From: Thermoproteota archaeon | GTDB lineage: Archaea > Korarchaeota > Korarchaeia > Korarchaeales > JAOZGB01 | Assembly: GCA_037917685.1 (NCBI GenBank) | Contig: JAVCBU010000019.1 | Span: 1 to 32,172, forward strand | Direction of reading: 5' to 3' | Length of the DNA stretch: 32,172 nt | Part shown: piece by piece, positions 1-32,172 of the stretch | Numbering within the stretch: position 1 is the first letter of the stretch | Layout: every line of letters begins with the position of its first letter | Translations under genes and position numbers: made by a program | Notes under the pieces: generated by a model | Database searches by the model: none | Told to the model about the DNA's origin: nothing | Seen by the model: the letters and a program-made list of their open reading frames with translations, nothing else

Positions 1-129
1 TACTCATCCCCTCAGCACACTTTCAATCCCGTTTAAGCCGGTTTTGCTTTTGAAACGCCATTGTCTGCGGTCTCTCAGGGATCCATGTTCAACTTTCAAT
101 CCCGTTTAAGCCGGTTTTGCTTTTGAAAC
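1..129 (-). CRISPR. CRISPR array A, leader-proximal end (continues beyond the window edge)
   Basis: Two identical 37-bp repeats at 20-56 and 93-129 (CTTTCAATCCCGTTTAAGCCGGTTTTGCTTTTGAAAC on +) with a 36-bp spacer at 57-92 and a partial spacer at 1-19. The AT-rich leader to the right and the GAAAG 3' end give minus orientation. Confidence 0.96.
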
Positions 130-490
130 CCCCAGCATTATATTTGTTATTGTTATTTTTAATTGTTTGTAATGCCGTTGTGTGGCTAACTGTTGCGGAT
201 ATCGCTTTCTGCGTGAGGTCTTTATAAAGATATGCACATGGTGCTTTAGGGCTTATATGCTGTGAGGGGTTATTATTCTTTCCCGATTTTTAACTTGGTT
301 TCTCATGGGTTTCTATTTTGTCGTTTATCCTTTCTATTTTGCTTGTTTGCGGTGTTTCGGTTTTTATACTTTTTATTCGTGTTTAATTCTGGTTTAAGGT
401 TTTTGGTTGGTGTTTTCGGGTTTCCTCCGTTGATTTTCAATGTTTACACTTGGCTGGTAAGGCTTGATTGTAGAGGTGATATGCACATTT
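130..490 (-). promoter_or_regulatory. CRISPR leader A
   Basis: Low-complexity region. Its reverse complement aligns with 31660-32025 (shared TTAAAAATAACAATAACAAATATAA, GCGATATCC, TGTGCATATCTTTATAAA, GCCAAGTGTAAACAT). TATA-like TTTATAAA at 221-228. Confidence 0.88.
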
Positions 491-1163: not shown

Positions 1164-1348
1164 CTTTCAATCCCGTTTAAGCCGGTTTTGCTTTTGAAAC
1201 AGCGTGGGCTTAGACTGCAGAGCGTCATATTGCTACCCTTTCAATCCCGTTTAAGCCGGTTTTGCTTTTGAAACACACATGGTACCCACCGGACAGGCGT
1301 TTTCTCGGCCACTTTCAATCCCGTTTAAGCCGGTTTTGCTTTTGAAAC
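1164..1348 (-). CRISPR. Leaderless mini-array (3 repeats, 2 spacers)
   Basis: Perfect repeats at 1164-1200, 1238-1274 and 1312-1348, with 37-bp spacers at 1201-1237 and 1275-1311. Only 41 bp separate it from the glycosyltransferase stop, and no leader homology is visible. Confidence 0.95.
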
Positions 1349-13623: not shown

Positions 13624-13627
13624 TCCA

Positions 13628-14023: not shown

Positions 14024-14043
14024 TTCAAGGCAGTTCGACTTCT

Positions 14044-14056
14044 ATATTTATTTAAC
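14044..14056 (-). promoter_or_regulatory. Putative TATA box of the type III operon
   Basis: TTAAATAAATAT on minus, about 25-30 bp upstream of the csm2 ATG (leaderless-type spacing). Confidence 0.5.
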
Positions 14057-14123
14057 TGTTTCCTCAAATTTTTCTCTTTTAAGGCTAAAAAATGGGAATT
14101 ATTGGGATAAACGTGGAGGTATG

Positions 14124-15347: not shown

Positions 15348-15348
15348 T

Positions 15349-16665: not shown

Positions 16666-18150
16666 GTGGTTTTGATTTCCGTGGGCTACCCGCCTGTTTC
16701 GCTGCTGTATTTTGGGAGGGTTGCCGTTTTGAAGTCTGCTCCCAGGGTGGAGGGTTCTGGGTGGATTATGGGCAGGTACGCGTCCAATTTCCTGCGGGAG
16801 GTGGAGAGCCGTGTCTGTGGATGTCTTTCTAAATGTGATGTGTCTTTTAGCATGCTTCTGAAGAGGGTTCCTTTGATAGGTTTTTCGGGTAGGATTTACT
16901 CAGAGTTTCTTGGTGCTTTTAGGTGTCCAGAATTCCCCCTGGTTGAGGTTAGGGTTTACTCCCCTGGCGTTGTCTCTGTCTGGGTTAAGGTGGTTTCCTA
17001 TCTCAGTGACCTCGACGTGCTTTCAAGGGTTTGGGCCACGTTCTGCAGGAAGGTGGCTAAACCGTTTGTCTCCAGGGTTTTTGGAGGAGACGGGTTTCTC
17101 CGTGGTATTGGCATGCCAGGTGTCCTGCGATTTCAGGGTTTCTGCACCACCTTTTACTCGTTTGTACACTTAATCGGAGGCCAAAGCCTTAAGGCTACAT
17201 CCGGGAAGGTGTTGTACTGTCTTGTAAATCCTCTTGGCTGCCAGAGTGTGAGTGAGGAGTATATTGTGAAGAACCTGCACGTCGAATCCGGCAAGTACGC
17301 TGGCGACCGCTTTGCATATTATCAGACTGGCATCCTGTTTCAGATGGCTGGTTTCAGAGGCAAGAGGAACAAGATTACAAGGAGGCGGGTTAGAGAAATG
17401 TACAAGCTTTCCGCCGATCTTGCTCTTGCAGCTCAGGCGTTCTACGGCGGCATTTCAAAGCCAGACTTCGACAATGACACCCTCTATAAGAGTTTACTGT
17501 GGCTTTCACCCCATTTCTGGAGTTCAGACTTTTATGTCAGGAGAAGATCCTTCCTCTCAGCCTACAGGCGTATAGCTAAAGGGATAAAACTTGATGAGTA
17601 TTTTAATAGGTACAGGCGATTCTTAACCTTGTTCTCCGACTTAAAGGTTAGGAAAACAATTGAGGAAATCAATTCCACAGCCTTGAAGCTTAGGATAGAG
17701 CCTCCTATTCCAAGATTCCCAGCTGGACGTGGTCTCTCAGGTGTTTCGAGGGTTCTAGTTGAATGTTTAATCTATAAACATCTTATTGAGGAGTCTCTGA
17801 TCCCCGAGGGAAAGGTTGGGAAAGCTCTTTTCAAACTATTGTATGGGGAGGATGTATCCAGCTACGAGGCTAACATCAGGAAGTTTAACGCTACATACAT
17901 GAGGAGAAAGCGGAAAGTTGGACTGTGTGTGACGGAGCTTTCAGTATCAACCGGGAAAAGCAAGGCTACACTCTACGAATTTATCAACCATGTCCATGAG
18001 TATACCCGTGGTATGCTTATGGTTGATGAGGATACATTGGGGAATAGGAAAGTTAAGGTTTTAAGGGTAAACACTGAGCACCAGGATGTCAGGAATCTAC
18101 TCTGGATTTACAATTCCAGGGTTAGGGAGATTGTTAGGAGGCTACGATGA
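16666..18150 (+). CDS. Uncharacterised protein with a C-terminal winged HTH
   Basis: 494-aa ORF ending GLCVTELSVSTGKSKATLYEFINHV...GNRKVKVLRVN. The true start may be the ATG at 16768. Confidence 0.65.
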   Translation: MVLISVGYPPVSLLYFGRVAVLKSAPRVEGSGWIMGRYASNFLREVESRVCGCLSKCDVSFSMLLKRVPLIGFSGRIYSEFLGAFRCPEFPLVEVRVYSPGVVSVWVKVVSYLSDLDVLSRVWATFCRKVAKPFVSRVFGGDGFLRGIGMPGVLRFQGFCTTFYSFVHLIGGQSLKATSGKVLYCLVNPLGCQSVSEEYIVKNLHVESGKYAGDRFAYYQTGILFQMAGFRGKRNKITRRRVREMYKLSADLALAAQAFYGGISKPDFDNDTLYKSLLWLSPHFWSSDFYVRRRSFLSAYRRIAKGIKLDEYFNRYRRFLTLFSDLKVRKTIEEINSTALKLRIEPPIPRFPAGRGLSGVSRVLVECLIYKHLIEESLIPEGKVGKALFKLLYGEDVSSYEANIRKFNATYMRRKRKVGLCVTELSVSTGKSKATLYEFINHVHEYTRGMLMVDEDTLGNRKVKVLRVNTEHQDVRNLLWIYNSRVREIVRRLR

Positions 18151-19713
18151 CGATACCCTTTCCAGGGAAGTGTTAAGCTCCTCCAATGTCCTGTCGATGT
18201 CAAACATTTTCTCCCTGGGGTTGTAGAGGTTTAGTGGAACCTGCCAGCCCGATGATTCGGCGCTTATCACAGGCTGAAACAGTATGATCTTGTCCTTTAG
18301 CAGGAGTCTTGAAGCATTTACAACAGCCCTGGTTAGGTAGGGCTTTGTGTAGATTATCCCCCATATCCCATCGAACTGGCCTCTGACATATGTAAGTAGG
18401 ACTGTGGAGACAGATGAAAAGGTGTTTGATACGGTTCTAAAAAGTTCCTCCCGCTCCCGGAGTAGTATTATGGATGGGTCTCCCAGGGCTACCCCCGTCG
18501 GGTATACAACATTGTATAAGACGTTTTCTTTCCGGAGTTTCTTTATCATGCTTCTAGTCGTCCAGTAGCTTAGTCCAAGTTTTTTACAAAGCTTAGAGGG
18601 CGATGACTCTCCTGAACAGTGAATCATGTTTATCAGTTTTAGCTCGTTCATGGTTGGCTTGTAGTAATGACCTTCAAGCTTAGGCCGTGGTTTTATCGGT
18701 AGATGGGTATAGTATCTCTCGCACATCTTTAGGAGTACCTGCTCCGGGCTTATATCCTCTATGAATATGCTGTAGCTCTGCCTAACAACAGTGGAGAGTT
18801 TTAGCGAATCGTATTTTTCTATGATTTCCTGTAGCTTCTTGTTGTAATCGTAGGGTAGCAGGATTGATATGAAGGTTGGATTGGCGGATGAGAGTTGGAA
18901 TATGCGGTATGTGAAGGGGAACTCAGCGAAAACCTCCATGTATCTGTTACTATTCTCTTCTATTATCAACAATAAGGTTATTAGTCCGATCTTTCTGAAA
19001 TTCACATTTATAAAGCCTGTTATCAGGTTCATGGCTCTAAGCCTACCTATACACCTGTATACGGTTGACTTGGCATGCCTGGACATCTTAACTATATCCT
19101 TTACCTCTATGGAATGATGGCGGCTTATTAGACTAAGAATCCTCGTTTCCGCCTTTGAAAGTGAGGGTGTAAGATAGGATTGAAAGTTTAGGATGACCTC
19201 ATAGTATATCTTGAAGTCTAGGAATGGAAGGACTTCCGCAAATCTCCTCAGAAGCTTTACGCATGATAATACTGCGTCTAACCCTTTACTTGCGATAAAG
19301 CTCTTCATGATTTTGACTCCATAGTAAGGCTGGAGGAGCGGGATGAACACTGGCATAGAGCTTTCCTCCCACCACTTCTCAACATCATCCCTATGGCCTT
19401 CGTGAAAGTAGGCATATGCCCAGGCAAGGTCCGAGTATTGTGGAACCTGGTCCCACTTGTAAGGAATATACTGTCTGAAAGCCTCCCTACGCAGGGTAAA
19501 ACTGACGAGTCTACTGTCAAGCTGGGATGATATTGCCATCTTCTTACCCGAATACTTAACCCCGGAGTAATAGCCTTTTTCAACAGGAAAATTCTCTACT
19601 GTTATCTTTTCTGGAATATGCCTTATTGGAGTTAGATTCAACAGTTTACCCGCCTTTACAATTTCCTGTTTGAAAAGCACGTATAACCCTTTATCTCGCA
19701 ATTTGGGAACCAA
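18142..19713 (-). CDS. Large transcriptional regulator with two Lrp/AsnC-like wHTH modules
   Basis: LSKAETRILSLI...AKSTVYRCIGRLRAMNLI...NFRKIGL and NELKLINMI...LGLSYWTTRSMIKKLRKENVL, each followed by a beta/alpha domain. Confidence 0.75.
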   Translation of the reverse strand: MVPKLRDKGLYVLFKQEIVKAGKLLNLTPIRHIPEKITVENFPVEKGYYSGVKYSGKKMAISSQLDSRLVSFTLRREAFRQYIPYKWDQVPQYSDLAWAYAYFHEGHRDDVEKWWEESSMPVFIPLLQPYYGVKIMKSFIASKGLDAVLSCVKLLRRFAEVLPFLDFKIYYEVILNFQSYLTPSLSKAETRILSLISRHHSIEVKDIVKMSRHAKSTVYRCIGRLRAMNLITGFINVNFRKIGLITLLLIIEENSNRYMEVFAEFPFTYRIFQLSSANPTFISILLPYDYNKKLQEIIEKYDSLKLSTVVRQSYSIFIEDISPEQVLLKMCERYYTHLPIKPRPKLEGHYYKPTMNELKLINMIHCSGESSPSKLCKKLGLSYWTTRSMIKKLRKENVLYNVVYPTGVALGDPSIILLREREELFRTVSNTFSSVSTVLLTYVRGQFDGIWGIIYTKPYLTRAVVNASRLLLKDKIILFQPVISAESSGWQVPLNLYNPREKMFDIDRTLEELNTSLERVSSS

Positions 19714-20110: not shown

Positions 20111-22135
20111 ATGGCAGCCTCCTATGTCAGGACAAACCTTGGGAAATGGGGGAAGCAACGCCAGACTTTTTGGGAGCACGGCTACCTAACACATGTATTC
20201 CGTAGAACCTTGAACTATCCTGCAATAGTGACGTTGAAGTCCGCTGTAAAATGCGACGATATGGAAAGGCTGATCGACAACTATCTGTCTCTAACAACAG
20301 TTGAAGACTACTTTCACGACTATGACAAACTATACGTGCCAGCTGAAATGTTAAATCCTGTCGATATAGCTAGGTTCAAAGATCACGGTAACATAGATTC
20401 TGAAAGGAACAGGAAGGCCCTTAAACTACTTATTGAGGACTTGAACACCCAAAGATTCATACATGTTAAAAACATAGAAAGAGATATAGATATCGTATTC
20501 GCAATTTCAGAGGGGTTTATCGAGAGGGCTTTAAGGGCTGCAAACTTTTCGCATGAGGGTGACCGGACACCTGAGAAATTTTCTATGGTTGCCGGTGTGC
20601 TTAAGGAGTTTGTAGAGGCCCACGGCTGCCTTGTTGACAACGCCTATTTTATCGATTTTGCTAGGATCCATATGTTCACCCTGAGAGTCGCAGATTCTAT
20701 AGCATCAGCCTACAGGAAGCCAGCTTTCAAAAGCGATGTAACCGAGTATCTAAATATAATAGACCAGAAGCTTGGAAAATACGTATTTCATGTTTCTTCG
20801 GTATTGTTTAATCCTGTTTTTATCGAGTCCTTAAGGTACGATGTTACAAAGGGGTACTTTTACGTTTACAACAGGGTCTACAAAGCGCTGGACAGCTGGA
20901 TAAAGGATAAGGGCATAATAGTTGAGGATAGGCTGTCGCTGATAGTGGCATTATGGCTTGGGCCTGAGGAGAACGGGATCCAAGGGATGGCTTCTCAAAT
21001 TGCTGGTGAATTATACCTTACAGACGTTCATGAAGACATATTTCACTGCGAGGAACAGATAGTTGACCCTAGAGCAGATCCTACAGGTTTTGACAGTGAA
21101 TTAAGGATGAAAATACTGGAACTAATGCTTAAGTACCCGCCCGTAGAGCATGCAGACCTAATGCCTTGTAACTCGTGCGGTAGACCAGTTGTCGGTAGGC
21201 TCTGGAAAAGTATAACAGAATTGGGAAACTATATCGGGGATGAAGCAAAAAGCAAGGCTAAGGAGGCTGGGGAGATGAGGAGCCTTGAGACAATGGGAAA
21301 TCTCGGCTACATTAAAACTGTTTCGGAAAGGCTCTATGGTATTAGCTCATCCCAGATTTGTAACTCAAGTATTCCCCTCTGTAACTCGTGTAGCAAGTTG
21401 ATCAAGGTATGGGCTGAAAACTATACTCTTCCTAGGAAGGGCGAGATCTTATTCACCGTTTACATACCAGAGGTAAATAGGGACTCGTACAGGACAACGG
21501 AGGACATGAAAATCACAGGGGAACAATCAGACATGCTGGCATCAATCCTCTATAGCTACCATCTCAAACAGCTTCTTACGACCTTAATCTATAACAGCCT
21601 GGAAGTTAGAGCCTCGGAGATGATTGGTGTTTCAGCGATAACTATACCCGTCCTCTTTTTGTCAGAGGTAACAGAGCCTATAGAGCAGGTGCTGAAAGTT
21701 CTAATGGATAATGATCTGCTGAGGGTGAAGCTTCCTGATAGTGTTGTTGAGTATAAGCCTAACTTCGGCATGAGGATAGGGGCAGGTCCGATGTCGGCTG
21801 ATGGGAAAGTATGGGATCACTCGGTACTGCCGGGGGTATACGATGTAGAAACCTATGTTAGAAGGATGAAAAGAGCGAAAAAGCTGTATGATAGTTTGAA
21901 TATCCTTCCGAGATCGAAGAGGGAGGATTTCTTATCCTATCTCTTCGCCCTTGAAGGATGTAATAATAGAGTAGCTCCCGCTATAGGGAGGCTTTTCAGG
22001 ACTGTACCAGAGGGGAAGGAGAAAGCTGTAAGGAAGCGTATTGATGGATTCTGCGAAGTAGCTGTGGAGGCTGCCAGGAACCCGGGGAGCGTGTATGATT
22101 TGAGGATAATTCTATCAAATATTAGAGGTGGGTGA
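20111..22135 (+). CDS. Type I-D-like large subunit with N-terminal HD nuclease (divergent, short Cas10d-like)
   Basis: Cas3-HD-type motifs TFWEH, FHDYDK, KDH, SHEG and RVADSIAS, plus the Zn-binding pair CNSCGR / LCNSC. First gene of an operon with an HD-less cas3. Confidence 0.7.
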   Translation: MAASYVRTNLGKWGKQRQTFWEHGYLTHVFRRTLNYPAIVTLKSAVKCDDMERLIDNYLSLTTVEDYFHDYDKLYVPAEMLNPVDIARFKDHGNIDSERNRKALKLLIEDLNTQRFIHVKNIERDIDIVFAISEGFIERALRAANFSHEGDRTPEKFSMVAGVLKEFVEAHGCLVDNAYFIDFARIHMFTLRVADSIASAYRKPAFKSDVTEYLNIIDQKLGKYVFHVSSVLFNPVFIESLRYDVTKGYFYVYNRVYKALDSWIKDKGIIVEDRLSLIVALWLGPEENGIQGMASQIAGELYLTDVHEDIFHCEEQIVDPRADPTGFDSELRMKILELMLKYPPVEHADLMPCNSCGRPVVGRLWKSITELGNYIGDEAKSKAKEAGEMRSLETMGNLGYIKTVSERLYGISSSQICNSSIPLCNSCSKLIKVWAENYTLPRKGEILFTVYIPEVNRDSYRTTEDMKITGEQSDMLASILYSYHLKQLLTTLIYNSLEVRASEMIGVSAITIPVLFLSEVTEPIEQVLKVLMDNDLLRVKLPDSVVEYKPNFGMRIGAGPMSADGKVWDHSVLPGVYDVETYVRRMKRAKKLYDSLNILPRSKREDFLSYLFALEGCNNRVAPAIGRLFRTVPEGKEKAVRKRIDGFCEVAVEAARNPGSVYDLRIILSNIRGG

Positions 22136-22136
22136 G

Positions 22137-22649
22137 ATGTGTGAGGGTTTACTTCCTTCGTCCGCTTGGGACTTGTTTGAAAGGCTTGATAAGATTGAGG
22201 AGTTAGATGAGGATCAAATAGCCTTCACGGTCGCGGGAGTCTTAGCGCTTGCAAGCCATAGTGCAGGACTACTCTCGTCAAGCAGCCCAGGCGAAAACTT
22301 CTCATTGTTCTTCAGCTTTACGTCATCTATAGATGAAAAACTTGATCCAAAGAGGACGTTTAGAAGGCTATGCGGCTCATTTCTCAACTATTCGATGGAC
22401 AAGATAAAGAAGCCGTTAAAGGTAACCCCATGTGTCGCCGACAAGTCCATCAAGAAACTAATGGTTAGCCTTGAAAGGGCTTTGACGAGAACAGACGATA
22501 ATACGGCTAGAAAGGTGGTTAAAGGCATGCTAGGCGTAAGAGACGCGGCTTACCTGTATGTTTACATGCCCGTTGAAAAGCTGAAGGAGATATTCAAGGA
22601 CGGGAGGCTTGTTTTAAACTGCCCAAAAAAGGATGAAGGAGGTGATTAA
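22137..22649 (+). CDS. Putative small subunit (Cas11-like)
   Basis: ~170-aa helical protein between the large subunit and cas7. GAGGTG RBS before the ATG at 22137. Confidence 0.55.
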   Translation: MCEGLLPSSAWDLFERLDKIEELDEDQIAFTVAGVLALASHSAGLLSSSSPGENFSLFFSFTSSIDEKLDPKRTFRRLCGSFLNYSMDKIKKPLKVTPCVADKSIKKLMVSLERALTRTDDNTARKVVKGMLGVRDAAYLYVYMPVEKLKEIFKDGRLVLNCPKKDEGGD

Positions 22650-22650
22650 T

Positions 22651-23958
22651 ATGAGTTTGGAAGAACCTGTCCTAGATAAGATCCCGAAAGGTATCGGAAG
22701 GGAGATAGGACTTTACAAGTCCATCCCAGCTGTGAGAGTGTGGGGTGTAATAAGCTTTGAGAGGGCTTTCAGCGGAAACGAGGCTGCCACGATAAATGAA
22801 GCCTTCACAGACATGGAGACCTTCCTCATAGAAAGGGAGGGGGACAAAGGCCTGGAATACGAGTTAGATGCTAGGGCTAGGGTTAGAGCTACAAAGTTTA
22901 ATTATGTGCGTGAAAGCTTCTTTAGACAGTGTATTCGCAGGATTATGGAGCCATACCTTGAAGCACTCTCAAACGGCGGCGATACCTCAGTCTACGATAA
23001 AATAATAGAGGACGCGAAGGCCATACTTCCAACTGATAAGCATAAGGAGCAGTTCAAGAACATTATTTTGAAGATGGCAACCTGTGCACCTTACGATCCT
23101 TGTGGAGCTTGTCCAGCATGCATCGCTGAAGGTGCAGCAGCTTCGACTGCTCCAACCAAGGGATCCCTACCCTTAAACTGGGAGAAGAAGTATAAGGAAA
23201 CAGACTTTAAAACGTTTTATACAGTTAAGTCAGCCGCCTTGGATCTTGGGGTGCCTGTTGGAGGCCAGATCTTAGAGCCGAAGCTTACGGAGACCATTGT
23301 AAGGAATAGGGTTCCTAGACCCGGCACAGCGGAGACGGAGACCGGAGCGCTTAAGGAGAGAGGTATGATGTTCTTTAAAGAGCACATGTTCAAGGGACCC
23401 GGGTACTTTAAGACGACAATTTTCAACCCTACTAGGTTAGAGCTTGGTTTCTTGGCGTATGAGCATCTGGTTGAGGATGTTAGAAAGGGGGCTAAAACAT
23501 CCTCTGGAGCTGGAGTCTGGGACCTATATAGGAACAGCAGCGGAGAGCCACTAATAGTGGTTGACGAAATCCTTCGAGTAGAAGGCTTTCTGACGCATCC
23601 GCCTCCACCATCGGTGCCTGTGGAAGTGCAAAACCTTGAAACAGGGCTTAAGAGATGCTTCTACGATGTAATAGGTGAGGGTAGGGGGGATGGGATAAGC
23701 GGGGTTAAAGAGTACAGGAACGACGAGGGAAGGGTTGTTTTAAGAAGGTACGTGGGAGAAAAGGCGATAGAAAGGCTGAGAACATATATCAAGGAGCTGA
23801 GGATTTTCGAAGTCGAATCCGAGGAGGAACGCTTAGAGACGTTTAAGGGGCTTGTGGAATACGCTGCCGAGGTTATGAGGTATATTCACAGGCCTGCGGC
23901 TGCAAGGGAAGAGCTTGAGCGTAGAGAAAAGCAGGGGAAAGGCCGAGGGAAGGCTTGA
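22651..23958 (+). CDS. cas7: Divergent Cas7 (Csc2-like)
   Basis: CAPYDPCGACPACIAEG (Csc2-like CxxCxxC), RNRV, RKGAKTSSGAG loop. Perfect GGAGGTGA RBS before the ATG at 22651. Confidence 0.65.
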   Translation: MSLEEPVLDKIPKGIGREIGLYKSIPAVRVWGVISFERAFSGNEAATINEAFTDMETFLIEREGDKGLEYELDARARVRATKFNYVRESFFRQCIRRIMEPYLEALSNGGDTSVYDKIIEDAKAILPTDKHKEQFKNIILKMATCAPYDPCGACPACIAEGAAASTAPTKGSLPLNWEKKYKETDFKTFYTVKSAALDLGVPVGGQILEPKLTETIVRNRVPRPGTAETETGALKERGMMFFKEHMFKGPGYFKTTIFNPTRLELGFLAYEHLVEDVRKGAKTSSGAGVWDLYRNSSGEPLIVVDEILRVEGFLTHPPPPSVPVEVQNLETGLKRCFYDVIGEGRGDGISGVKEYRNDEGRVVLRRYVGEKAIERLRTYIKELRIFEVESEEERLETFKGLVEYAAEVMRYIHRPAAAREELERREKQGKGRGKA

Positions 23959-23974
23959 CACTAGGGATCAGCAT

Positions 23975-24856
23975 ATGCTTGCAGCAGTTATTCACGCTGT
24001 AAACGTTGACCCGGTATGTTGCACAGAGACTACTTCCAAGATAAACATATTCAAACCGTCACACGTGATTTATAGAACGGCGGTTGCAGGGGCGATGCTT
24101 AGGGTGGTACTACTCTCAAAGGGTGAAAACTTCTATACATTTTTTAACAGGTGGGTATCTTGTAGAAACGCGAGAGAAGAGATTACTAAGGAGTATATTA
24201 GCCTTCTCAGGGAGCTTCCGAAAGTCTCGGTTACAGACGGCATACTGTTGAGGGAGAGCTCGATACTACCTGAGAATTATAACTTAATACTTGATGGCAC
24301 CGCGACAGCCCTTGGATCGATAAAGAAAGCGTCTCTAGGAAAGCTGGCGGGGTACCAGATTGTCGGCGTTCCCCATCTAACCTTCAGAGCTGTTCCAAAC
24401 CTTCTAAAACATTATTTTAGAGCTCCGGGTGCGGATTGGAGATTCATCATCTTCGGCCAAGAGGGTGAGCTTGCTGAGGGGGCGAAAATTCTACAGATAG
24501 CCCTTCGGGAAGTAGGCTTGGGTGGGAAACACTCCTTTAGGGGTAGGTTCATCATTAAGAGCATAAAGGAGGTGGAACTGAAACCTATCATGGAGCCGGT
24601 TATGGGAGAACTATGTCAACCTCTTATATGCCGGGACGGCAGAGTTGAGCAAACGCTGAAGAGGCTTAGGCTTACGCCCGTGAGGTTTAGAGCAACCACA
24701 CGATACTCTGGAATAGCGCCCTGTAGCAGGATAGTTCCGGCTCTTGAAGGCGTGTTCAAAGCAGAGACTGGTTATCAGATGGAATTCGAGGGTAAAACCC
24801 TTATTGTTACAGGGGAAGATCTTAATTGGCCTCACCATCTGGAAGCATCAGCCTAG
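23975..24856 (+). CDS. cas5: Divergent Cas5-group RAMP (Csc1 position)
   Basis: IYRTAVAGAML helix and G-rich loop VGLGGKHSFRGRF. Lies between cas7 and cas3. Confidence 0.6.
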   Translation: MLAAVIHAVNVDPVCCTETTSKINIFKPSHVIYRTAVAGAMLRVVLLSKGENFYTFFNRWVSCRNAREEITKEYISLLRELPKVSVTDGILLRESSILPENYNLILDGTATALGSIKKASLGKLAGYQIVGVPHLTFRAVPNLLKHYFRAPGADWRFIIFGQEGELAEGAKILQIALREVGLGGKHSFRGRFIIKSIKEVELKPIMEPVMGELCQPLICRDGRVEQTLKRLRLTPVRFRATTRYSGIAPCSRIVPALEGVFKAETGYQMEFEGKTLIVTGEDLNWPHHLEASA

Positions 24857-26901
24857 TCAACCATGGGGCATACTACGAGCCCCAAAGCAAAAGAAGCCTG
24901 CTGAAAATTAGGGTTGGCCCTGTAGAGCTTGACTTATCTAAATCGCAGGCTAACGTGCTCTCTAGGATCGTAGACTACGCGGATGAGTACCTCCATAGGC
25001 CTGTAACAGTTCCACTGTACATATCCTCTGAGACAGGAGCGGGTAAAACAGAAGTTGCTCTTGACGCTGCGGCTCTCCTTGCAGCCAAGCTCTCAAAACA
25101 TCTTAGAATAATCCATGCGGTTTACGTGGCTCCTACAAGGCTCTTATCAGGGCAGGCCGCCTCAAGGGGTAGGCTTCTAGAAGCTAAAATGGGATCTGCC
25201 CTCCCAAACATAGAATGCTACCACATACACGGGAAGCTTGAATACGACGTAAAGGGGGAGACGATAAGGAATGCATTCTCGATGGCTGAGGACAAGCATA
25301 TAATGATATTTACAAATCCACAGATGCTTTCATCCCTAGCTACTCAAACTAAAAGAAGGTATGGAATTCCCGATAGAACCGGAAAGAATAGGCTTATAGA
25401 GGCACTGGCCGAGCCAAACCTATATATCATCGACGAAGCACACTTCTACAGTGGTAAAACCTTCACACGCCTCCTTATACTCCTATACGAGATACTGTCA
25501 TGGAAGGTCGTCGCCTCGGTGACGAATCCCACGTTCCTACTTTTCCTAAGTGCAACCATGAATCCAACCCTAATAGAGGCTCATATGAACAAACTATTTA
25601 AGATTCTCTTTAACGGCGAACTCACACCTCCTATAGCCGTAAACATCCCTCTACATAATAGAATGCTTAAAATCACGGATAAAGAAGCTGGCGAGAAGTG
25701 GATTCAAATGTCAGAGGCTGAGTCCACGAAAAGGGTAGTCCAGCTACTTGCAAGTGAAACAAGCAACATAAGCGACCTGGCGGTGGTATACTCTGACAAC
25801 ATTAACCTTCTAATAACCATCCAGAGAATGATTGAATCGTACAACGTAAAAACTGCTATACTACATTCCCAAATGCCCAGGGCAACATACAACATGGAGC
25901 TGGAGAAGCTTAAGGATAAGGATACACAAGTTCTACTCATCACAAGCCTAGGTGAGATTGGCGTAGAATTCGAAGCATACGACAGAACAGTAGAACTAAT
26001 GTTCTCCATAAACTCTCAAAGCATCGCGAAAATAGTTCAAAGATTAGGGAGACTAGCAAGGAGATACAGTACTAAGGGCATATTCTACAATATTGATCTC
26101 CCCTGGATAAGAGTAAAAACATCAAACAGGTTTTCCAACAAGCACAGACACATCAGAGTAGGGGGAGCTCTCTCAAAGAGACTTCCAAAATTCCTCGATA
26201 AAGCTATGAACATGTCAGATGAATTCTTCACCTCGTATATCTCCCCAAAAGCCGACAAACAATTCCACCAAAACCTTAAGGAAAAAACACGTCATGGAGC
26301 AAAGGGTAGAATCCCCCAAATCTATATTATCGCAGGCTTAGAAGTAGAAAACGTTGAAAGCGAAGACGATAGGATAACTCTTCCAATATCAAAGATTTGC
26401 AGGAAAATAGTTCCAATAACAAAGGATGAAAGCATAGAAGTATTCCCCGGGATAGGTGGCGGGTTCCTGTTTAGAAGAACAGCTGGCAAAGTGAAGGGTA
26501 GAAGATTTTTAAACATTTTTATCCGCAGTCTTAACCGAAAGGAGAGAATACTAAACTTTGAAAAGTGGCTTAGAGAGATTGGTGTTCAGATCATAATATA
26601 CTCGGAAGATGCAACTTTAGAACTAAACATGCCTAAACTATCCCACAATATAATTTTCCACAGTCCAATTCTAATACTTCACTTCAAGAGAAACATACTA
26701 CCCCCCGGTGACATTTCACAGGCAGATGCCTACAACATCCTGTTAGAAAATCTTGAACCAGCAACGCAAGACCTAGACATAATAAGAGAGAGCAACAACC
26801 CGGACAGCATAATACTCTACGAGCCAGCTCTAATAACATCGAAAGAACCTTCTATAGGCGCGGTAGAGAATGTATATCACATGTTGGTTGGTGAAAAATG
26901 A
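24826..26901 (+). CDS. cas3: Cas3' SF2 helicase lacking an HD domain
   Basis: SETGAGKT, YVAPTRLL, IIDEAH, LSAT and QRLGRLAR. No HD motif. Confidence 0.85.
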   Translation: MASPSGSISLVNHGAYYEPQSKRSLLKIRVGPVELDLSKSQANVLSRIVDYADEYLHRPVTVPLYISSETGAGKTEVALDAAALLAAKLSKHLRIIHAVYVAPTRLLSGQAASRGRLLEAKMGSALPNIECYHIHGKLEYDVKGETIRNAFSMAEDKHIMIFTNPQMLSSLATQTKRRYGIPDRTGKNRLIEALAEPNLYIIDEAHFYSGKTFTRLLILLYEILSWKVVASVTNPTFLLFLSATMNPTLIEAHMNKLFKILFNGELTPPIAVNIPLHNRMLKITDKEAGEKWIQMSEAESTKRVVQLLASETSNISDLAVVYSDNINLLITIQRMIESYNVKTAILHSQMPRATYNMELEKLKDKDTQVLLITSLGEIGVEFEAYDRTVELMFSINSQSIAKIVQRLGRLARRYSTKGIFYNIDLPWIRVKTSNRFSNKHRHIRVGGALSKRLPKFLDKAMNMSDEFFTSYISPKADKQFHQNLKEKTRHGAKGRIPQIYIIAGLEVENVESEDDRITLPISKICRKIVPITKDESIEVFPGIGGGFLFRRTAGKVKGRRFLNIFIRSLNRKERILNFEKWLREIGVQIIIYSEDATLELNMPKLSHNIIFHSPILILHFKRNILPPGDISQADAYNILLENLEPATQDLDIIRESNNPDSIILYEPALITSKEPSIGAVENVYHMLVGEK

Positions 26902-27185
26902 AGACGATAGTAATCTACGACATCTCGGATGACAGGAAGCGGACCAAGCTAAGCGACCATCTTAAGGGCTACGGGCTTAGTAGGATCCAGTATAGTGGGT
27001 TCTACGGCCTTTTGAACAGCCATGACAGGCATGTGCTCGTGCTTGAGGTTGGCAGGTATATTAGTGGTTCGAGGGACAGCATTTATGTTATCCCGCTCTG
27101 TGACCGCTGCTCCAGGCTTGTGAGGATAGTTACTGATAGGGTTAGGGGCTTGGGGGAGGCTGGGGCTGTGGAGTATGTTGAGTAG
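26898..27185 (+). CDS. cas2: Cas2
   Basis: IVIYDISDDRKR...RIQYSGF...IPLCDRC. Confidence 0.95.
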   Translation: MKTIVIYDISDDRKRTKLSDHLKGYGLSRIQYSGFYGLLNSHDRHVLVLEVGRYISGSRDSIYVIPLCDRCSRLVRIVTDRVRGLGEAGAVEYVE

Positions 27186-27194
27186 GGTGCCTGG

Positions 27195-28130
27195 GTGGTT
27201 TACTTCCTGAGCGATGTTGAGCATAAGATGCTTCTCCGCAGCCTGCTGCCGCTAGCCAGGGAGATGGGGGTTTCGGAGGATGTCCGGGGCTGGAATTGGC
27301 ATCGGGGAGGCCTTAAGCCCTACTACCGTGACGTTTCCATCCCTATGTACAGTGTTGTCTCGAGCTACTGTCCTACGCATAGGGACGTGTATGTGAATAG
27401 GGTTGAGGGGGTTAAGGGTAGGGTTACTGAGCCTCTCGCGCTTGGCGTGGCTGTCCACCGTGCGGTTTCAACTGTTATCACCTCTTTCCAGGAGGGGAAG
27501 AGGCTTGACTTCGACCGCTGGTATGAGGATGCTTTGAGGGAGCGTAATGTTAAGCGTAGGTTTGAGGAGGTTAAGCGTAAGACTAGGCTTGTATGGGACT
27601 ATGTCTACCTTCAGTGTGAGAGCCGTCTTGCTGAGCGCATATCGCTCCAGCCCTATAGTAGTAGGAGGGACAGCCTGGCCACGGCCATCCCCTTCCTTGT
27701 GGAGCATAAGCTTACCGGGGAGCTTCTAGGCCTGTCTGGGCTTCTTAGCATAGACTGCTACGACTATCTTCACGGGATTGTCTTCGACTTGAAGGTTTCG
27801 GATGAGGAGCGTGTCGAGTACCGGCTTGCTTCTACGGGCTATGCCCTGGTTTTGGAGAGTGTCTATGAGGTTCCGGTTGATATTGGCTGCGTTGTCTACG
27901 TGAAGTTTAGGGGTGGCAAGCTCCATGTTTCGAGGGATCTATTCTTTATAGGTACTGAGCTTAGGAGCTGGTGGATGGAGGAGCGTGACCAGAGGCTTGA
28001 GATGGTGGCGCAGAGGCGTGACCCTGGGCTTCCAAGGATGTGTCCGAGGGACTGCATATACCTCTACCATTGTAGGGGGCTTGAGCCTGGGGTGGAGGCT
28101 GACCTTCATGTATCGGAGGCTGGTGGTTGA
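27195..28130 (+). CDS. csa1: Cas4-family protein, Csa1-like
   Basis: EDVRGWNW, YCPTHRDVY, D...VFDLK, GYALVLES and C-terminal CPRDCIYLYHC Fe-S cysteines. Confidence 0.85.
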   Translation: MVYFLSDVEHKMLLRSLLPLAREMGVSEDVRGWNWHRGGLKPYYRDVSIPMYSVVSSYCPTHRDVYVNRVEGVKGRVTEPLALGVAVHRAVSTVITSFQEGKRLDFDRWYEDALRERNVKRRFEEVKRKTRLVWDYVYLQCESRLAERISLQPYSSRRDSLATAIPFLVEHKLTGELLGLSGLLSIDCYDYLHGIVFDLKVSDEERVEYRLASTGYALVLESVYEVPVDIGCVVYVKFRGGKLHVSRDLFFIGTELRSWWMEERDQRLEMVAQRRDPGLPRMCPRDCIYLYHCRGLEPGVEADLHVSEAGG

Positions 28131-29136
28131 CGGCTACGGCAAGTTCATCGGTAGGAAGGGCAACTGTATAGTTGTGAGGGAGAAGGGGCGGACTATCCTC
28201 ACCGTGCCTGCTGAGAAGCTTCGCATGGTCCTTGTCACCGGGCGTGGAAGCCTGAGTTTCGACGCTGCGAGGCTTCTATCGGAGCATGGTGTGGACCTTA
28301 TAATAGTCTCAAGGTATGGGAGGGTGGCTGGGAGGCTTTCAACCCCTGTCCTGAGGACCGTCCAGACTAGGAGGCAGCAGTACTACGCGTACAACGACTG
28401 GAGAAGCGGCTATCTCGCGAGGCAGTTCCTCCTGGGTAAGGCTAGGAACCAAGCCGCCATACTTAGAACCCTAGCGAAGGCGAGGGCTGAGACGAGCCCT
28501 AAGAATGCTGAAACGCTTAGGAAGGCCTCCAGCAAGGTGTTAGAGTATGTTGGCATGATAGGGAGGGTTAGGGCTGTCCCTGTGGAGAAGATAAGGGAGA
28601 GGCTTATGGGCCTGGAGGGGAATGCAAGCCAGGAGTACTGGCAAGCCATCAAGACGGTAATCCCAGCTGGCTACAGCTTCCCCGGCAGGACAGGGAGGTA
28701 TGCCGGCGACCCTATCAACGCGATGCTTAACTACGCCTATGCGATTCTTGAGGGGGAGGTGTGGAGGGCGGTGCACTACGCTGGCCTAGACCCGTACGGC
28801 GGCTTCCTACACGCTGACAGGCCTGGAAGGGCGAGCCTAGTCTACGATCTGATGGAGGAGTTTAGGCCTCACCTCGCTGACAAAACGGTTATAACACTCG
28901 TAAGCCAGGGGGTGGTGAGGCCTGGCGACTTTGAGTATGAGGCTGGACGCTGCATCCTAGGGCAGAACGCTAGGAGGAGCCTTGCGGAGACAATGGAGAA
29001 GAAGATGGAGTCCTACACCCACCACCGGGACAGGAGGATAAGGTGGACAGACCTAGTCCTTAAGCAGGCCATACAGATCGCGAAGTACCTGAGGGGGGAG
29101 GAAACAGAGTATAAGCCATTCCACCAGAGGTGGTAG
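28108..29136 (+). CDS. cas1: Cas1
   Basis: LMGLEG, NAMLNYAYAIL, GLDPYGGFLH and SLVYDLMEEFR. ATG at 28108 with GGAGG upstream. Confidence 0.97.
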   Translation: MYRRLVVDGYGKFIGRKGNCIVVREKGRTILTVPAEKLRMVLVTGRGSLSFDAARLLSEHGVDLIIVSRYGRVAGRLSTPVLRTVQTRRQQYYAYNDWRSGYLARQFLLGKARNQAAILRTLAKARAETSPKNAETLRKASSKVLEYVGMIGRVRAVPVEKIRERLMGLEGNASQEYWQAIKTVIPAGYSFPGRTGRYAGDPINAMLNYAYAILEGEVWRAVHYAGLDPYGGFLHADRPGRASLVYDLMEEFRPHLADKTVITLVSQGVVRPGDFEYEAGRCILGQNARRSLAETMEKKMESYTHHRDRRIRWTDLVLKQAIQIAKYLRGEETEYKPFHQRW

Positions 29137-29402: not shown

Positions 29403-29990
29403 ATGAGGGGGATGGAGGTAACAGTCACGGTGACAGACATAGTCCAGTACAACTACTGCCCCAAAAAAGTCTACTTTCTGAAAACCCTAAACCTAAGGAT
29501 CCCTCCAAGGAGGAAGATGGAGTATGGCAGGGAAATCCACGAGCAGGAGATGAGGAAGCTCGAGAGGAGGAAAACAGTCTACGGGATACCCAGGGAGAAG
29601 GTTGAAAGGGTTGAGCACAGCCTACACCTTGAGGACCCCGAGCTCGGCCTAGCCGGAACCGTGGACACCGTGGTAATAATGAAGGATGGAACACCAGTCC
29701 CAGTAGAGGCTAAGTACACAGACCTCCCGAAAATAACATGGAAGATAAGGAAGCAGCTCGCAGCATACGCCTTACTCCTCGAAAAACACTACGGGAAAAC
29801 AGTGAAGAAGGGAGTAGTATACTTCCCCCTTCAGAGAAAGCTTCTAAACACAGAAATAACCCCCATAGACAAACTGGCCGTCAAGAGAGACATCCAGAAG
29901 ATAAGACAGCTCATAAAAAGCGAGAAAATCCCCAGGAAGGCGGACAAGAGAAAATGCGGATACTGCGAGGCAAGAAAATACTGTGTTTAA
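29403..29990 (+). CDS. cas4: Cas4
   Basis: YNYCPKK, GTVD, PVEAK, QLAAY, KCGYCEARKYC. The start may be at 29412. Confidence 0.95.
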   Translation: MRGMEVTVTVTDIVQYNYCPKKVYFLKTLNLRIPPRRKMEYGREIHEQEMRKLERRKTVYGIPREKVERVEHSLHLEDPELGLAGTVDTVVIMKDGTPVPVEAKYTDLPKITWKIRKQLAAYALLLEKHYGKTVKKGVVYFPLQRKLLNTEITPIDKLAVKRDIQKIRQLIKSEKIPRKADKRKCGYCEARKYCV

Positions 29991-30603: not shown

Positions 30604-31138
30604 TACCAGCGTGATAATCTCCCCATACAAGCCTGGAGATCCCTTTCGTGAGGAGTCAACTTCCATCATGCTGAGTAAGGATCTAAGAAAGATTGGATCC
30701 CCGGCCTCAATTGTTGAGCTTTTCTCGGTCATTTCCAGGCTATACTACTCGGATCAAATCCTTATTTCGAAAGATTTAAGGGAATTACTGGATAAACTTC
30801 CTGAGGAGAAGAGGATCCTAGCAATGGTAAGCTCCATCACGCTGAGTTGGGGAATGAAGTTTCCTAAAATCGGATTAGAGCCTAAAAGGCTCTCCCTCGC
30901 TGGCGTAGATGTTTTGCTCCCCCAGTTCATGGTTGAAGCCTGTAAGCTCTCAGCAAGCCTCAGACTTAGGACAATGGATAACATTCACATGGCCTTCGCA
31001 AAGCTAGTAAATGAGATAGATGGCCTAGATTACTTGATCACCTCTGATGGAGAACTGTTGAAGAGAAGGGCTTTGATTAAGAAAGTTTCGGGGTTGGAGA
31101 TTATCTCTCCAACGGAACTCATGAGCTTGACAACCTGA
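30581..31138 (+). CDS. vapC: PIN-domain toxin with no canonical start upstream of its first catalytic Asp
   Basis: The frame open from 30581 reads GKTKIYIDTSVII...VELFSV...LRTMDNIH...LITSDGEL. The first canonical start (GTG 30611) lies after IDTS. Confidence 0.8.
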   Translation, partial: GKTKIYIDTSVIISPYKPGDPFREESTSIMLSKDLRKIGSPASIVELFSVISRLYYSDQILISKDLRELLDKLPEEKRILAMVSSITLSWGMKFPKIGLEPKRLSLAGVDVLLPQFMVEACKLSASLRLRTMDNIHMAFAKLVNEIDGLDYLITSDGELLKRRALIKKVSGLEIISPTELMSLTT

Positions 31139-31659
31139 TATGATGACTTCTTTCCTCAAATCGCTAGAACTGAAGGTCTTACGTTACCTAGCTGAAAGCT
31201 ACACAAAATATTCTTAATCAATGTCTGCATGGCGAGAGGATTATCGCCCAAATAAGGCTGTTCATCTTTGATTTTTAGGAGAAACTTCTTCAAAAGTTTT
31301 CTGGAATTCCCAGCCTATTAAAATTCCAGCAATGATTAAGATTCGGCATCATCTGGATGCAATGAAATGCCATTCTCTCTTATTATTTCTCATCCCCCAC
31401 TCGTGTGGGGATAAGAAGCCGCCGGAGAGGTAGACTTCCTGGTTAGGAGGCCTGACCGCCCTACCACTAAACCATAACACTTCACCTGAATGTCTCTTCA
31501 CACGTAATATACGGAGTATCTTCCAAGACGAAGCTAACTTCGCAAAATATCCTTTAAAGAAATGTGATTCACCATGATCAGGCCCTAAACGTAGACGAAT
31601 ACACTTCTTTATCCGAAATATCATGCTTTCATGTTTCAAATGGCGTAGCAAGTAAAGCG

Positions 31660-32025: not shown

Positions 32026-32172
32026 GTTTCAAAAGCAAAACCGGCTTAAACGGGATTGAAAGTCCATGAAGCTGCCTGCGATACAGCAGTCACCCCTACG
32101 TTTCAAAAGCAAAACCGGCTTAAACGGGATTGAAAGAGTATGTTTCTCTGGGGGCGGCCGTCATAGTAGAAG
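32026..32172 (+). CRISPR. CRISPR array B, leader-proximal end (probably continues beyond the window)
   Basis: Repeats at 32026-32062 and 32100-32136, a 37-bp spacer at 32063-32099, and the next spacer from 32137. Confidence 0.96.

What the first reader, a model, noticed from the sequence alone, without database searches (positions are those of the whole stretch)
20111..26901. Highly divergent type I-D-like effector module, possibly a new subtype variant
Seen: the order is HD-large subunit, small subunit, cas7, cas5, helicase-only cas3. The HD nuclease sits on a 674-aa large subunit. Cas7 is long (~435 aa) with four clustered Cys and replaces the Csc2 CxxYG/RYGA motifs with CIAEG/RKGA. Cas5 is ~290 aa, and Cas3 helicase motif V is atypical (TSLGEIGVEF). 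Established: HD on the large subunit with a Cas3' helicase defines I-D, whose Cas10d is usually considerably longer. Inference: a deep-branching I-D relative that standard profiles may miss, relevant to the type III to type I transition.
Basis: partly seen in the sequence, partly recalled or inferred. Interest (0 to 1): 0.78.

Follow-up and report, generated by a model that had tools for sequence, protein, structure and literature searches.

The report
Rare, deeply divergent type I-D-like CRISPR module
This archaeal locus encodes a working-looking CRISPR interference machine built like subtype I-D (nuclease on the large subunit, separate helicase), but four of its five proteins are so diverged that no curated profile library recognises them.

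Summary
The five co-directional genes at 20111-26901 are real. They sit between a divergent regulator and cas2-csa1-cas1-cas4, on a contig that ends in 37-nt-repeat CRISPR arrays on both sides.

Only the last gene is recognisable, as an SF2/Cas3-like helicase without an HD domain. The other four proteins have no hit in Pfam, NCBIfam, PADLOC or PDB sequences.

The family is tiny: 19 Cas7-like proteins in 5.8 billion. The large-subunit profile matched 9 relatives among 1.84 billion cluster representatives. Gene order is kept in all 8 distinct loci seen, from archaeal MAGs and a Gemmatimonadota MAG. Two of these loci have arrays directly after the helicase.

Evidence for I-D kinship:
- Its Cys cluster and R-K-G-A motif align with the Csc2 CxxCPxC..YG and RYGA motifs.
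- The large subunit has a non-permuted HD (H, HDYDK, H, H, D), a CxxC...CxxC pair and no GGDD.
- The large subunit plus the 173-aa gene total 847 aa, the size of an archaeal Cas10d.

The parts
20111..22135 (+). Large subunit, Cas10d-like (674 aa). It has an N-terminal Cas3-type HD nuclease (H23, H69-D70, H92, H148, D195), then a CxxC(353/356)...CxxC(424/427) putative zinc finger. There is no GGDD and no Cas11-like tail.
   Evidence: for the motifs (12 of 12 members); nearest language-model clusters are named Csc3/Cas10d (weak evidence); no profile or PDB hit.
22128..22649 (+). Putative small subunit (Cas11-like, 173 aa). It is a stand-alone gene between the large-subunit gene and cas7.
   Evidence: Conserved in this position in all 8 of 8 distinct loci. 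No similarity to any profile, PDB chain or the Cas11d region of Cas10d. Assigned by size and position only.
22651..23958 (+). Cas7, Csc2/Cas7d-like (435 aa; an upstream ATG at 22633 would give 441 aa). It carries an invariant four-Cys cluster and an R-[KR]-GAKTSSG motif.
23975..24856 (+). Cas5-like RAMP (293 aa from the Met that aligns with the homologues' starts; the longest ORF starts at 23915).
   Evidence: family alignment; 3 of 6 members weakly hit Cmr6 (E 0.0095); nearest language-model clusters are Csm4; weak Cmr6 rows. No Csc1 hit.
24826..26901 (+). Cas3'-like SF2 DExH helicase without an HD domain (691 aa), with a roughly 270-aa C-terminal region of unknown fold.
   Evidence: DEAD, ResIII, Helicase_C; cas3_core 49.3 bits, below the 102 cut-off. 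(motifs). (hhalign to canonical I-D Cas3', prob 99.6%, E 1.7e-23). (the only PLSDB tblastn hit is an I-D Cas3'). See also for the caveat.
26898..27185 (+). cas2
   Evidence: PF09827 E 1.3e-16; TIGR01573. Its start overlaps the helicase stop by 4 nt.
27195..28130 (+). csa1 (Cas4-family nuclease)
   Evidence: PF06023 E 2.9e-75; TIGR01896.
27985..29136 (+). cas1. The longest ORF is listed. The Cas1 domain starts at residue 46, so the true start is probably later.
   Evidence: PF01867 E 1e-81; TIGR00287 279 bits. No subtype-specific Cas1 model reaches its cut-off.
29403..29990 (+). cas4
   Evidence: PF01930; TIGR00372 120 bits.
32026..32172 (+). CRISPR array cut by the contig end. It has two 37-nt repeats GTTTCAAAAGC...GGGATTGAAAG and 36-37-nt spacers, with an A+T-rich leader upstream (about 31700-32025).
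1..132 (-). Second array with the same repeat, reading outward on the minus strand and cut by the contig end. Its leader (133 to about 200) resembles the right-hand leader.
1164..1348 (-). Three further copies of the same repeat (a small array).
18142..19713 (-). Divergently transcribed regulator (523 aa) with MarR/Csa3-like winged-helix domains. It is conserved next to the module.
   Evidence: MarR, HTH_24, CasR/Csa3 models; homologues sit in the same place in L001, L003 and L020.
16666..18150 (+). Conserved 494-aa protein of no known family that travels with the module in archaeal loci.
   Evidence: no hit; homologues in L001, L003 and L020. In L001 and L003 the homologue lies directly after cas6.

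Best explanation
This is the interference module of a rare, deeply diverged lineage of subtype I-D-like CRISPR-Cas systems.

Proposed mechanism, inferred by analogy with Synechocystis and S. islandicus I-D:
1. Pre-crRNA from the 37-nt-repeat arrays is cut by a Cas6 encoded elsewhere in the genome. This leaves the 8-nt ATTGAAAG 5' handle.
2. Several Cas7 copies, one Cas5, the Cas10d-like large subunit and copies of the 173-aa small subunit assemble on the crRNA into a Cascade-like complex.
3. The complex finds a PAM-flanked DNA target and forms an R-loop.
4. It recruits the HD-less Cas3' helicase.
5. The Cas3-type HD nuclease at the N-terminus of the large subunit cuts the DNA.

Shown here: the genes, their conservation as a block, their linkage to arrays and adaptation genes, the HD, zinc-finger and helicase motifs, and the Cas7 fold with its best likeness to Cas7d.

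Inferred: complex composition, DNA targeting, the PAM, the nuclease role of the HD domain, and the Cas11 identity of the small protein.
For: 1. Operon of five abutting genes followed by cas2-csa1-cas1-cas4 and an array.
2. The same block appears in all 8 distinct loci as far as their contigs reach: the window, L001-L005, L020 and L023. The order is LS-SS-C7-C5-C3 in archaea and C3-LS-SS-C7-C5-cas4 in a Gemmatimonadota MAG. These are the two orders seen in 10 canonical I-D loci.
3. L003 (at least 34 repeats) and L004 (5 repeats) have 37-nt-repeat arrays ending GATTGAAAG/GATTGAGAG directly after the helicase. cas6 lies next to the module in L001, L003 and L005, and on another contig in the window's own genome.
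5. The CxxCPxC-x2-G and R-x-GA-x-S motifs align to the Csc2 motifs. The four-Cys cluster is also present in 3 of 10 canonical Cas7d.
6. Large subunit: H, HDYDK, H, H, D in Cas3-type order aligns to H / LHDYDK of Cas10d. It has one CxxC...CxxC pair, as do 4 of 10 canonical Cas10d. No GGDD occurs in 12 of 12 members. The domain order matches S. islandicus Cas10d (PMC7689449, passages).
7. 674 + 173 = 847 aa, against 817-1070 aa for canonical Cas10d.
8. No separate Cas3 HD gene in the 95%-complete genome.
9. No canonical Csc2 in the genome.
Against: - No significant sequence or profile similarity of the large subunit, small subunit, Cas7 or Cas5 to canonical I-D proteins. hhalign probabilities were 6.2%, 0.2%, 2.5% and 0.3%. 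hmmsearch in both directions was negative.
- The Cas7 structural lead of I-D over I-E and type III Cas7 is only 1-2 Z units, and the model is of middling confidence (pLDDT 68).
- Cas5 looks more like type III Csm4/Cmr6 than Csc1.
- The helicase is not set apart from housekeeping SF2 helicases by Cas3 models. cas3_core gives 50.1 bits, against 58.7 for another helicase of the genome. My canonical I-D Cas3' HMM gives 61.3, against 62.2 for a 1032-aa helicase on another contig. The I-D-specific model TIGR03158 reaches 41.5 bits, below its 69.1 cut-off.
- The small protein shows no similarity to the Cas11d region, no better than control windows.
- The large-subunit fold was not predicted.
- Failure of curated profiles is common even in accepted I-D loci. 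In 9 PLSDB loci, Cas10d is annotated 'hypothetical protein' in 6 and Cas5d in 4. The HMM misses for these two proteins are therefore weaker evidence of distance than the Cas7 miss.
Confidence: 0.7

Rival explanations
1. This is an independent lineage, worth its own subtype. [quoted passage not shown] It would keep cas11 as a separate gene and a Csm4-like Cas5, and would have captured an SF2 helicase on its own. The likeness to I-D would then be grade, not clade.
For: - No profile-level similarity to any I-D protein except the helicase core.
- Cas5 neighbours are Csm4/Cmr6.
- cas11 is a separate gene, as in type III.
- The helicase is no closer to I-D Cas3' than a housekeeping helicase is by HMM score.
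- In the window the module sits next to a type III-D module and shares its repeats.
Against: - The Csc2-specific motifs and the four-Cys cluster are shared with canonical Cas7d.
- The two best structural matches are the two I-D Cas7 structures.
- The HDYDK motif is identical to that of Synechocystis Cas10d.
- Both I-D gene orders recur.
- Canonical I-D itself is described as a type I/III hybrid with type III-like Cas7 and Cas5 (PMC10212523, passages).
Confidence: 0.2
2. This is a type III-derived or type IV-C-like effector: an HD-bearing Cas10-like large subunit with Cas11, Cas7 and Cas5. It would act without Cas3, and the helicase would be an unrelated accessory or neighbouring gene.
For: - Cas3 models do not separate this helicase from other SF2 helicases of the genome.
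- Type IV-C is described as having an HD-bearing Cas10-like subunit (PMC12669027 passage; PMC13676074 abstract only).
Against: - The helicase gene is present and adjacent in 6 of 6 loci whose contigs reach that far. It overlaps its neighbours and moves with the block to the other end in the bacterial locus.
- cas3_core aligns over positions 5-320 of its 358.
- The only PLSDB tblastn hit is an I-D Cas3'.
- The HD motif order is the Cas3 type, not the permuted Cas10 type. The order was seen here; the rule comes from PMC10212523.
Confidence: 0.06
3. This is a divergent type I-A or other Cas8-based type I variant. The 674-aa protein would be a Cas8 that has fused with Cas3'' (HD).
For: - Csa1 and a Csa3-like regulator, both commonly I-A-associated, are in the locus.
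- A split Cas3'/Cas3'' is typical of I-A (recalled knowledge).
Against: - No Cas8a, Csa5 or Csa2 profile hit.
- The gene order matches I-D, not I-A.
- Large-subunit language-model neighbours are Csc3/Cas10d (weak).
- A zinc-finger pair between two mid-protein regions is as in Cas10/Cas10d.
Confidence: 0.04

Closest known systems
Canonical subtype I-D (Synechocystis sp. PCC 6803 Cascade, PDB 7SBA; S. islandicus Cas10d, PMC7689449; T. pendens Csc2, PDB 4TXD)
   Same: - A Cas3-type HD on the N-terminus of the large subunit, with a separate HD-less helicase.
- The gene orders cas10d-cas7-cas5-cas3' and cas3'-cas10d-cas7-cas5.
- The Cas7 fold and the Csc2 Cys-cluster and RYGA-type motifs.
- A CxxC...CxxC pair and no GGDD.
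- 37-nt repeats ending ATTGAAAG.
   Different: - No I-D profile recognises any of the four Cascade proteins.
- cas11 is a separate gene.
- The large subunit starts about 50 residues closer to HD motif I.
- Cas7 is about 100-120 residues longer (helical insert before the Cys cluster and a helical C-terminal extension).
- Cas5 is about 40-80 residues longer and looks Csm4-like.
- cas6 is not in the window's locus.
I-D lineages with a stand-alone Cas11d gene
   Same: The large-subunit gene lacks the Cas11 domain and is followed by a small free-standing gene placed before cas7.
   Different: Those notes say that a curated profile already covers their Cas11d and that their Cas10d/Csc2 are recognisable. 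Here 0 of 4 small-subunit homologues hit any PADLOC model, and the other subunits are unrecognised too.
Type III systems (for example the III-D module in the same window, 5591-14023 on the minus strand)
   Same: - Separate cas11 after the large-subunit gene.
- Zinc finger in the large subunit.
- Csm4/Cmr6-like Cas5.
- Cas7 with type III-like features.
   Different: - The HD motifs are in Cas3 order.
- No GGDD.
- A Cas3-like helicase is part of the block.
- There is a single cas7 gene.
- The neighbouring III-D proteins are readily recognised by the same libraries.
Subtype IV-C (HD-bearing Cas10-like large subunit with Cas11, Cas7 and Cas5)
   Same: An HD on a Cas10-like large subunit, and a compact four-protein complex.
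   Different: IV-C has no helicase and as a rule no adaptation genes (PMC12669027 passage, and recalled knowledge). Here a helicase is conserved in the block, and adaptation genes or arrays abut it.

Membership tests
Subtype I-D | HD nuclease of the Cas3 (non-permuted) type fused to the N-terminus of the large subunit | tested here: met
   H23, H69-D70, H92, H148 and D195 are invariant in 12 of 12 members. They align to H / HD of 10 canonical Cas10d. This is motif-level evidence only, as no HD profile passes.
Subtype I-D | Large subunit with a Cas10-like fold: two degenerate RRM/palm domains flanking a zinc finger, with no active GGDD | tested here: inconclusive
   There is a CxxC...CxxC pair in mid-protein and no GGDD in 12 of 12 members. 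The domain budget fits S. islandicus Cas10d.
Subtype I-D | Large subunit belongs to the Cas10d/Csc3 sequence family (TIGR03174 and PADLOC models) | tested here: not met
   0 hits. hhalign to a 10-sequence Cas10d profile gave probability 6.2%. hmmsearch was negative both ways. The profile found only its own family in 1.84 billion representatives.
Subtype I-D | Cas7 belongs to the Csc2/Cas7d family by sequence profile (TIGR03157) | tested here: not met
   0 of 18 members hit Csc2, and 2 of 18 weakly hit Cas7b. (probability 2.5%) and 114 were also negative.
Subtype I-D | Cas7 resembles Cas7d in fold and signature motifs | tested here: met
Subtype I-D | Cas5 belongs to the Csc1/Cas5d family | tested here: not met
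   No Csc1 hit. The weak neighbours are Cmr6/Csm4. The fold was not tested.
Subtype I-D | Separate Cas3' helicase lacking HD | tested here: met
   An SF2 DExH helicase with no HD motifs. It is adjacent in 6 of 6 loci that reach that far. No Cas3'' gene is found in the genome.
Subtype I-D | Helicase belongs to the I-D Cas3' clade (TIGR03158) | tested here: inconclusive
   41.5 bits against a 69.1 cut-off. hhalign to canonical Cas3' gave 99.6%. A housekeeping helicase scores the same with my Cas3' HMM. The single PLSDB hit is an I-D Cas3'. No tree was built.
Subtype I-D | Cas11d made from an internal start inside cas10d | tested here: not met
   A separate 173-aa gene follows the large-subunit gene in all loci. 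Its Cas11 identity is itself unproven.
Subtype I-D | Effector gene order cas10d-cas7-cas5 with cas3' at either end | tested here: met
   compared.
Type III | Cas10 with a permuted HD and, usually, an active GGDD cyclase, with no Cas3 helicase | tested here: not met
   The HD is in Cas3 order. No GGDD. The helicase is conserved in the block.
Subtype I-A | Cas8a, Csa5 and Csa2 with a separate Cas3'' HD gene | tested here: not met
Subtype IV-C | HD-Cas10-like large subunit without a helicase or adaptation module | tested here: not met
   The helicase is conserved. Adaptation genes or arrays abut the block.

The most novel reading that the evidence does not exclude
The family is a subtype-level lineage that branches between type III and canonical I-D and preserves the pre-fusion state proposed in the literature. 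That state has a Cas3-type-HD Cas10 core, a still separate cas11, a Csm4-like Cas5, a Csc2-like Cas7 and a newly recruited helicase. It would then be a living intermediate of the type III to type I transition, rather than a secondarily split I-D.
Probability: 0.25. Interest if true: 0.75.

Novelty: new variant of a known kind. Interest (0 to 1): 0.55.

Why it matters
Subtype I-D is the proposed bridge between type III and type I CRISPR systems, and it is also used as a genome-editing nuclease. This is a lineage that keeps the I-D logic but lies outside the reach of every curated profile, and it occurs in both archaea and bacteria. That has three consequences:
- Current typing tools under-count I-D-like systems.
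- It adds a distant second point for inferring which I-D features are ancestral, such as a separate versus an embedded Cas11, the Cas7 zinc cluster and a Csm4-like Cas5.
- It offers a compact, probably thermostable Cascade with an unknown PAM.

Profiles built from alignments A1-A5 would let annotators find the rest of the family.

Tried and rejected
- **Complex prediction** (large plus small subunit) was not available.
- **Foldseek against PDB** with the Cas7 model gave no match at E <= 0.001. All listed weak rows were Cas7-family chains.
- **Large-subunit profile against 1.84 billion representatives.** The only non-family hit, P0041 (E 3e-4), is a repeat protein. I rejected it (hhalign probability 4.8%; no Cas family).
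- **PDB sequence and profile searches** for the large subunit, small subunit, Cas7 and Cas5 found nothing meaningful.
- **Small subunit against the Cas11d region of Cas10d and against the window's III-D Csm2.** No signal above the control windows.
- **PAM.** One full spacer (32063-32099) had no exact match in viral contigs. I did not pursue this further.
- **Rfam.** No family matched in the window.
- **Metagenome scan.** It added only two new loci, L020 and L023. The other two were duplicates.
- **Neighbourhood of the Gemmatimonadota genome.** Only 3 genomes are held, which is uninformative.
- **Literature.** Searches, and passages of PMC12669027 (main text plus 3 of 4 supplement files), PMC10910872 and PMC10212523, showed no description of this family. 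The Zenodo profile set of the 2025 classification could not be seen and may already hold it.
- **Trees.** No Cas3 or Cas7 tree was built, for lack of typed reference sequences from other subtypes.

Full report
**Observation**

The window is a whole 32,172-bp contig of a 1.81-Mb, 95%-complete archaeal genome. Five co-directional genes occupy 20111-26901:
- a 674-aa protein;
- a 173-aa protein, overlapping the first by 8 nt;
- a 435-aa protein, or 441 aa from an upstream ATG;
- a 293-aa protein, or 313 aa by the longest ORF;
- a 691-aa protein.

The 691-aa gene's stop overlaps the start of cas2. After it come csa1, cas1 and cas4. An A+T-rich leader then precedes an array of 37-nt repeats (GTTTCAAAAGC...GGGATTGAAAG), which runs off the contig. 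The other contig end carries the same repeat in the opposite orientation with a similar leader.

**Surroundings**

- A complete type III-D module lies on the minus strand at 5591-14023. It comprises a III-D Csm2, several Csm3-like RAMPs, a Cas10 with HD and palm domains, and a III-D Cas5. Pfam and PADLOC recognise it easily.
- The silence of the same libraries on the plus-strand module is therefore not a general property of this organism's proteins.
- A 523-aa double winged-helix regulator (MarR/Csa3-like) is transcribed divergently from the module. Upstream of it is a 494-aa protein of no known family.
- No cas6 is in the window. A Cas6 is encoded on another contig.
- The genome has no canonical Csc2 and no separate Cas3 HD gene.

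**How isolated the proteins are**

- Pfam, NCBIfam and PADLOC give no hit at all for the first four proteins.
- Scanning every family member separately gave only faint RAMP signals. Two of 18 Cas7 members hit Cas7b at 2e-4, and 3 of 6 Cas5 members hit Cmr6 at 0.0095. None of the 12 large-subunit or 4 small-subunit members gave a Cas-relevant hit.
- PDB sequences are not matched by single sequences or by profiles.
- A word-indexed search of 5.8 billion proteins found 19 Cas7-like proteins including the window's own. One carries an organism name (a hypothetical protein of Candidatus Nitrospira bockiana). The same kind of search found 11 large subunits.
- A full HMMER scan of 1.84 billion cluster representatives with the large-subunit profile found 10 proteins. 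Nine are family members and the tenth is spurious.
- A pattern scan of one genome for each of 185,579 species found five loci: four archaeal MAGs and one Gemmatimonadota MAG.
- Within the window's own phylum, as held here, 5 of 43 genomes carry the family.

**Is it a CRISPR effector?**

- The five genes stay together in all 8 distinct loci as far as the contigs reach. The archaeal order is LS-SS-Cas7-Cas5-helicase. The bacterial order is helicase-LS-SS-Cas7-Cas5, followed by cas4.
- In L003 and L004 an array of 37-nt repeats ending GATTGAAAG/GATTGAGAG begins directly after the helicase gene. These repeats have a stable hairpin.
- cas6 lies beside the module in L001, L003 and L005.
- Together with the adaptation genes and arrays in the window, this makes a functional class 1 interference module the only reasonable reading.

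**Which kind? Evidence for I-D**

1. *Architecture.* There is an HD on the large subunit and an HD-less helicase, and no Cas3'' gene is found anywhere in the genome.
   - The invariant H23, H69-D70, H92, H148 and D195 are in the Cas3-type order. Per the I-D review, this order distinguishes Cas10d from type III Cas10 (PMC10212523, passages).
   - hhalign puts EH and FHDYDK opposite the H and LHDYDK of canonical Cas10d.
2. *Domain budget.*
   - S. islandicus Cas10d is 847 aa. Its domains are HD 1-186, cyclase/RRM 187-425, a zinc finger with C429/C432/C478/C481, palm/RRM 491-623, thumb 624-719 and Cas11 720-847 (PMC7689449, passages).
   - Here every one of 12 large subunits has exactly one CxxC...CxxC pair in mid-protein and no GGDD.
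   - 674 + 173 = 847 aa. The 'short Cas10d' is thus most simply a Cas10d core whose Cas11 part is a separate gene.
3. *Cas7.*
   - The family's invariant C-x5-CGxCPxCIxEG and R-[KR]-GAKTSSG align with CxxCPDCxxYG and RYGAQxSxTG of canonical Cas7d.
   - The four-Cys cluster occurs in 3 of my 10 canonical Cas7d (Synechocystis, Nostoc, Chlorohelix).
4. *Gene order.* Both orders found in the family are the two orders found in 10 canonical I-D loci. One of those is from an archaeon of the same order as the window's genome.
5. *Language-model neighbours.* The nearest clusters to the large subunit are named Csc3/Cas10d (0.94-0.95). The recognition value of 2134 lies under the tool's 2300 mark, so this is only a lead.
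6. *Helicase hit.* The helicase's single tblastn hit in 72,556 plasmids is an I-D Cas3' (E 8e-3).

**Evidence against, and limits**

- Profile-profile comparison with alignments of 10 canonical Cas10d, Cas7d and Cas5d is not significant (probabilities 6.2%, 2.5% and 0.3%). The small protein shows nothing against the Cas11d region beyond control windows.
- HMMs in both directions find only the helicase.
- The helicase itself is not told apart from housekeeping SF2 helicases by Cas3 models. Its Cas3' role rests on conserved position plus general similarity.
- Cas5's faint neighbours are type III (Csm4, Cmr6) rather than Csc1.
- The Cas7 structural margin is modest.
- Curated profiles also miss Cas10d in 6 of 9 and Cas5d in 4 of 9 accepted I-D plasmid loci. 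A miss for those two proteins says little. The miss for Cas7, which is named in all 9, says more.
- The fold of the large subunit, the small subunit and Cas5 could not be predicted, and no trees were built.

**Mechanism proposed**

This is by analogy with I-D (PMC10212523, PMC7689449).
1. Cas6, supplied in trans, makes crRNAs with an 8-nt ATTGAAAG handle.
2. Cas5 caps the handle, Cas7 forms the backbone, and the large subunit with copies of the small protein forms the belly and reads a PAM.
3. R-loop formation recruits the helicase to the HD domain, which nicks and then degrades DNA in an ATP-dependent manner.

The Cas7 Cys cluster is probably a structural zinc site. Every step after 'the genes exist, are conserved together and are array-linked' is inferred.

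**Comparison and novelty**

- The system works like I-D and shares its defining architecture. It fails every sequence-family test for Cas10d, Csc2 and Csc1, and it has cas11 as a separate gene.
- Earlier notes of this scan (unchecked) say that a stand-alone Cas11d is already common in archaeal I-D lineages and is covered by a curated profile. The split alone is therefore not new. That profile does not see this family.
- I found no description of the family in the papers searched. The profile set of the 2025 classification was not visible to me.
- I therefore file it as a new variant of a known kind: a deep I-D-like lineage, possibly deserving its own variant or subtype label.

**Verdict**

| Item | Assessment |
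|---|---|
| Observation | Confirmed |
| Interest | Moderate (0.55) |

The boldest reading not excluded is that this is a surviving pre-fusion intermediate between type III and I-D. It needs the large-subunit fold and rooted trees.

Noticed in passing
window 5591-16650 (minus strand): A complete type III-D module (Csm2-IIID, several Csm3-like RAMPs, an 873-aa Cas10 with HD and palm2, a III-D Cas5) shares the repeat with the I-D-like module. Two upstream ORFs of 433 and 407 aa (15349-16650 and 14124-15347) have no family hit. They are conserved, with their order, in the 80% relative L020.
   Followed up: partly
window 4606-4642 (minus strand): A solitary copy of the CRISPR repeat with one mismatch (GGGGTTGAAAG) lies between the end of the III-D operon and a small RHH-like ORF plus a PIN-domain gene (3890-4288). 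This may be a cr-like RNA or a toxin-antitoxin arrangement of the kind described for stand-alone repeats.
   Followed up: partly
window 879-1065: Three degenerate direct repeats of period 73-74 (TGGGCTTGCGTGTTGCCTCTACTAGGTTT and variants) lie between the two left-hand arrays. They are unlike the main repeat. They may be a decayed array or a leader-associated repeat.
   Followed up: no
window 16666-18150; L001 4138-5574; L003 4148-5680; L020 2297-3778: A roughly 480-510-aa protein family of no known family travels with the module in four archaeal loci. In L001 and L003 it lies directly downstream of cas6. It may be an accessory component.
   Followed up: partly
G000 contig C14:227465-228133 (minus strand; locus L007): The only Cas6 candidate of the genome is on another contig, far from any repeat (TIGR01877 at 42 bits, under the cut-off; PADLOC Cas6 E 6e-18). 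It would have to serve both the III-D and the I-D-like modules in trans.
   Followed up: partly
PLSDB loci L011-L019: In 9 accepted type I-D plasmid loci the RefSeq annotation calls Cas10d 'hypothetical protein' in 6, Cas5d in 4, and Cas3' a generic DEAD/DEAH helicase in 2. Profile coverage of I-D large subunits is poor in general.
   Followed up: yes
window 30611-31138 and 31349-31696: A weak PIN-like ORF (E 4.9e-4, under the cut-off) and a weak AbiEi-like ORF on the minus strand sit between cas4 and the right-hand array leader.
   Followed up: no
L001 17361-19832 (minus strand): An 823-aa protein downstream of the module in a related locus matches homing-endonuclease models (E 3e-25). It looks like an intein-containing or mobile gene rather than a Cas10.
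   Followed up: no
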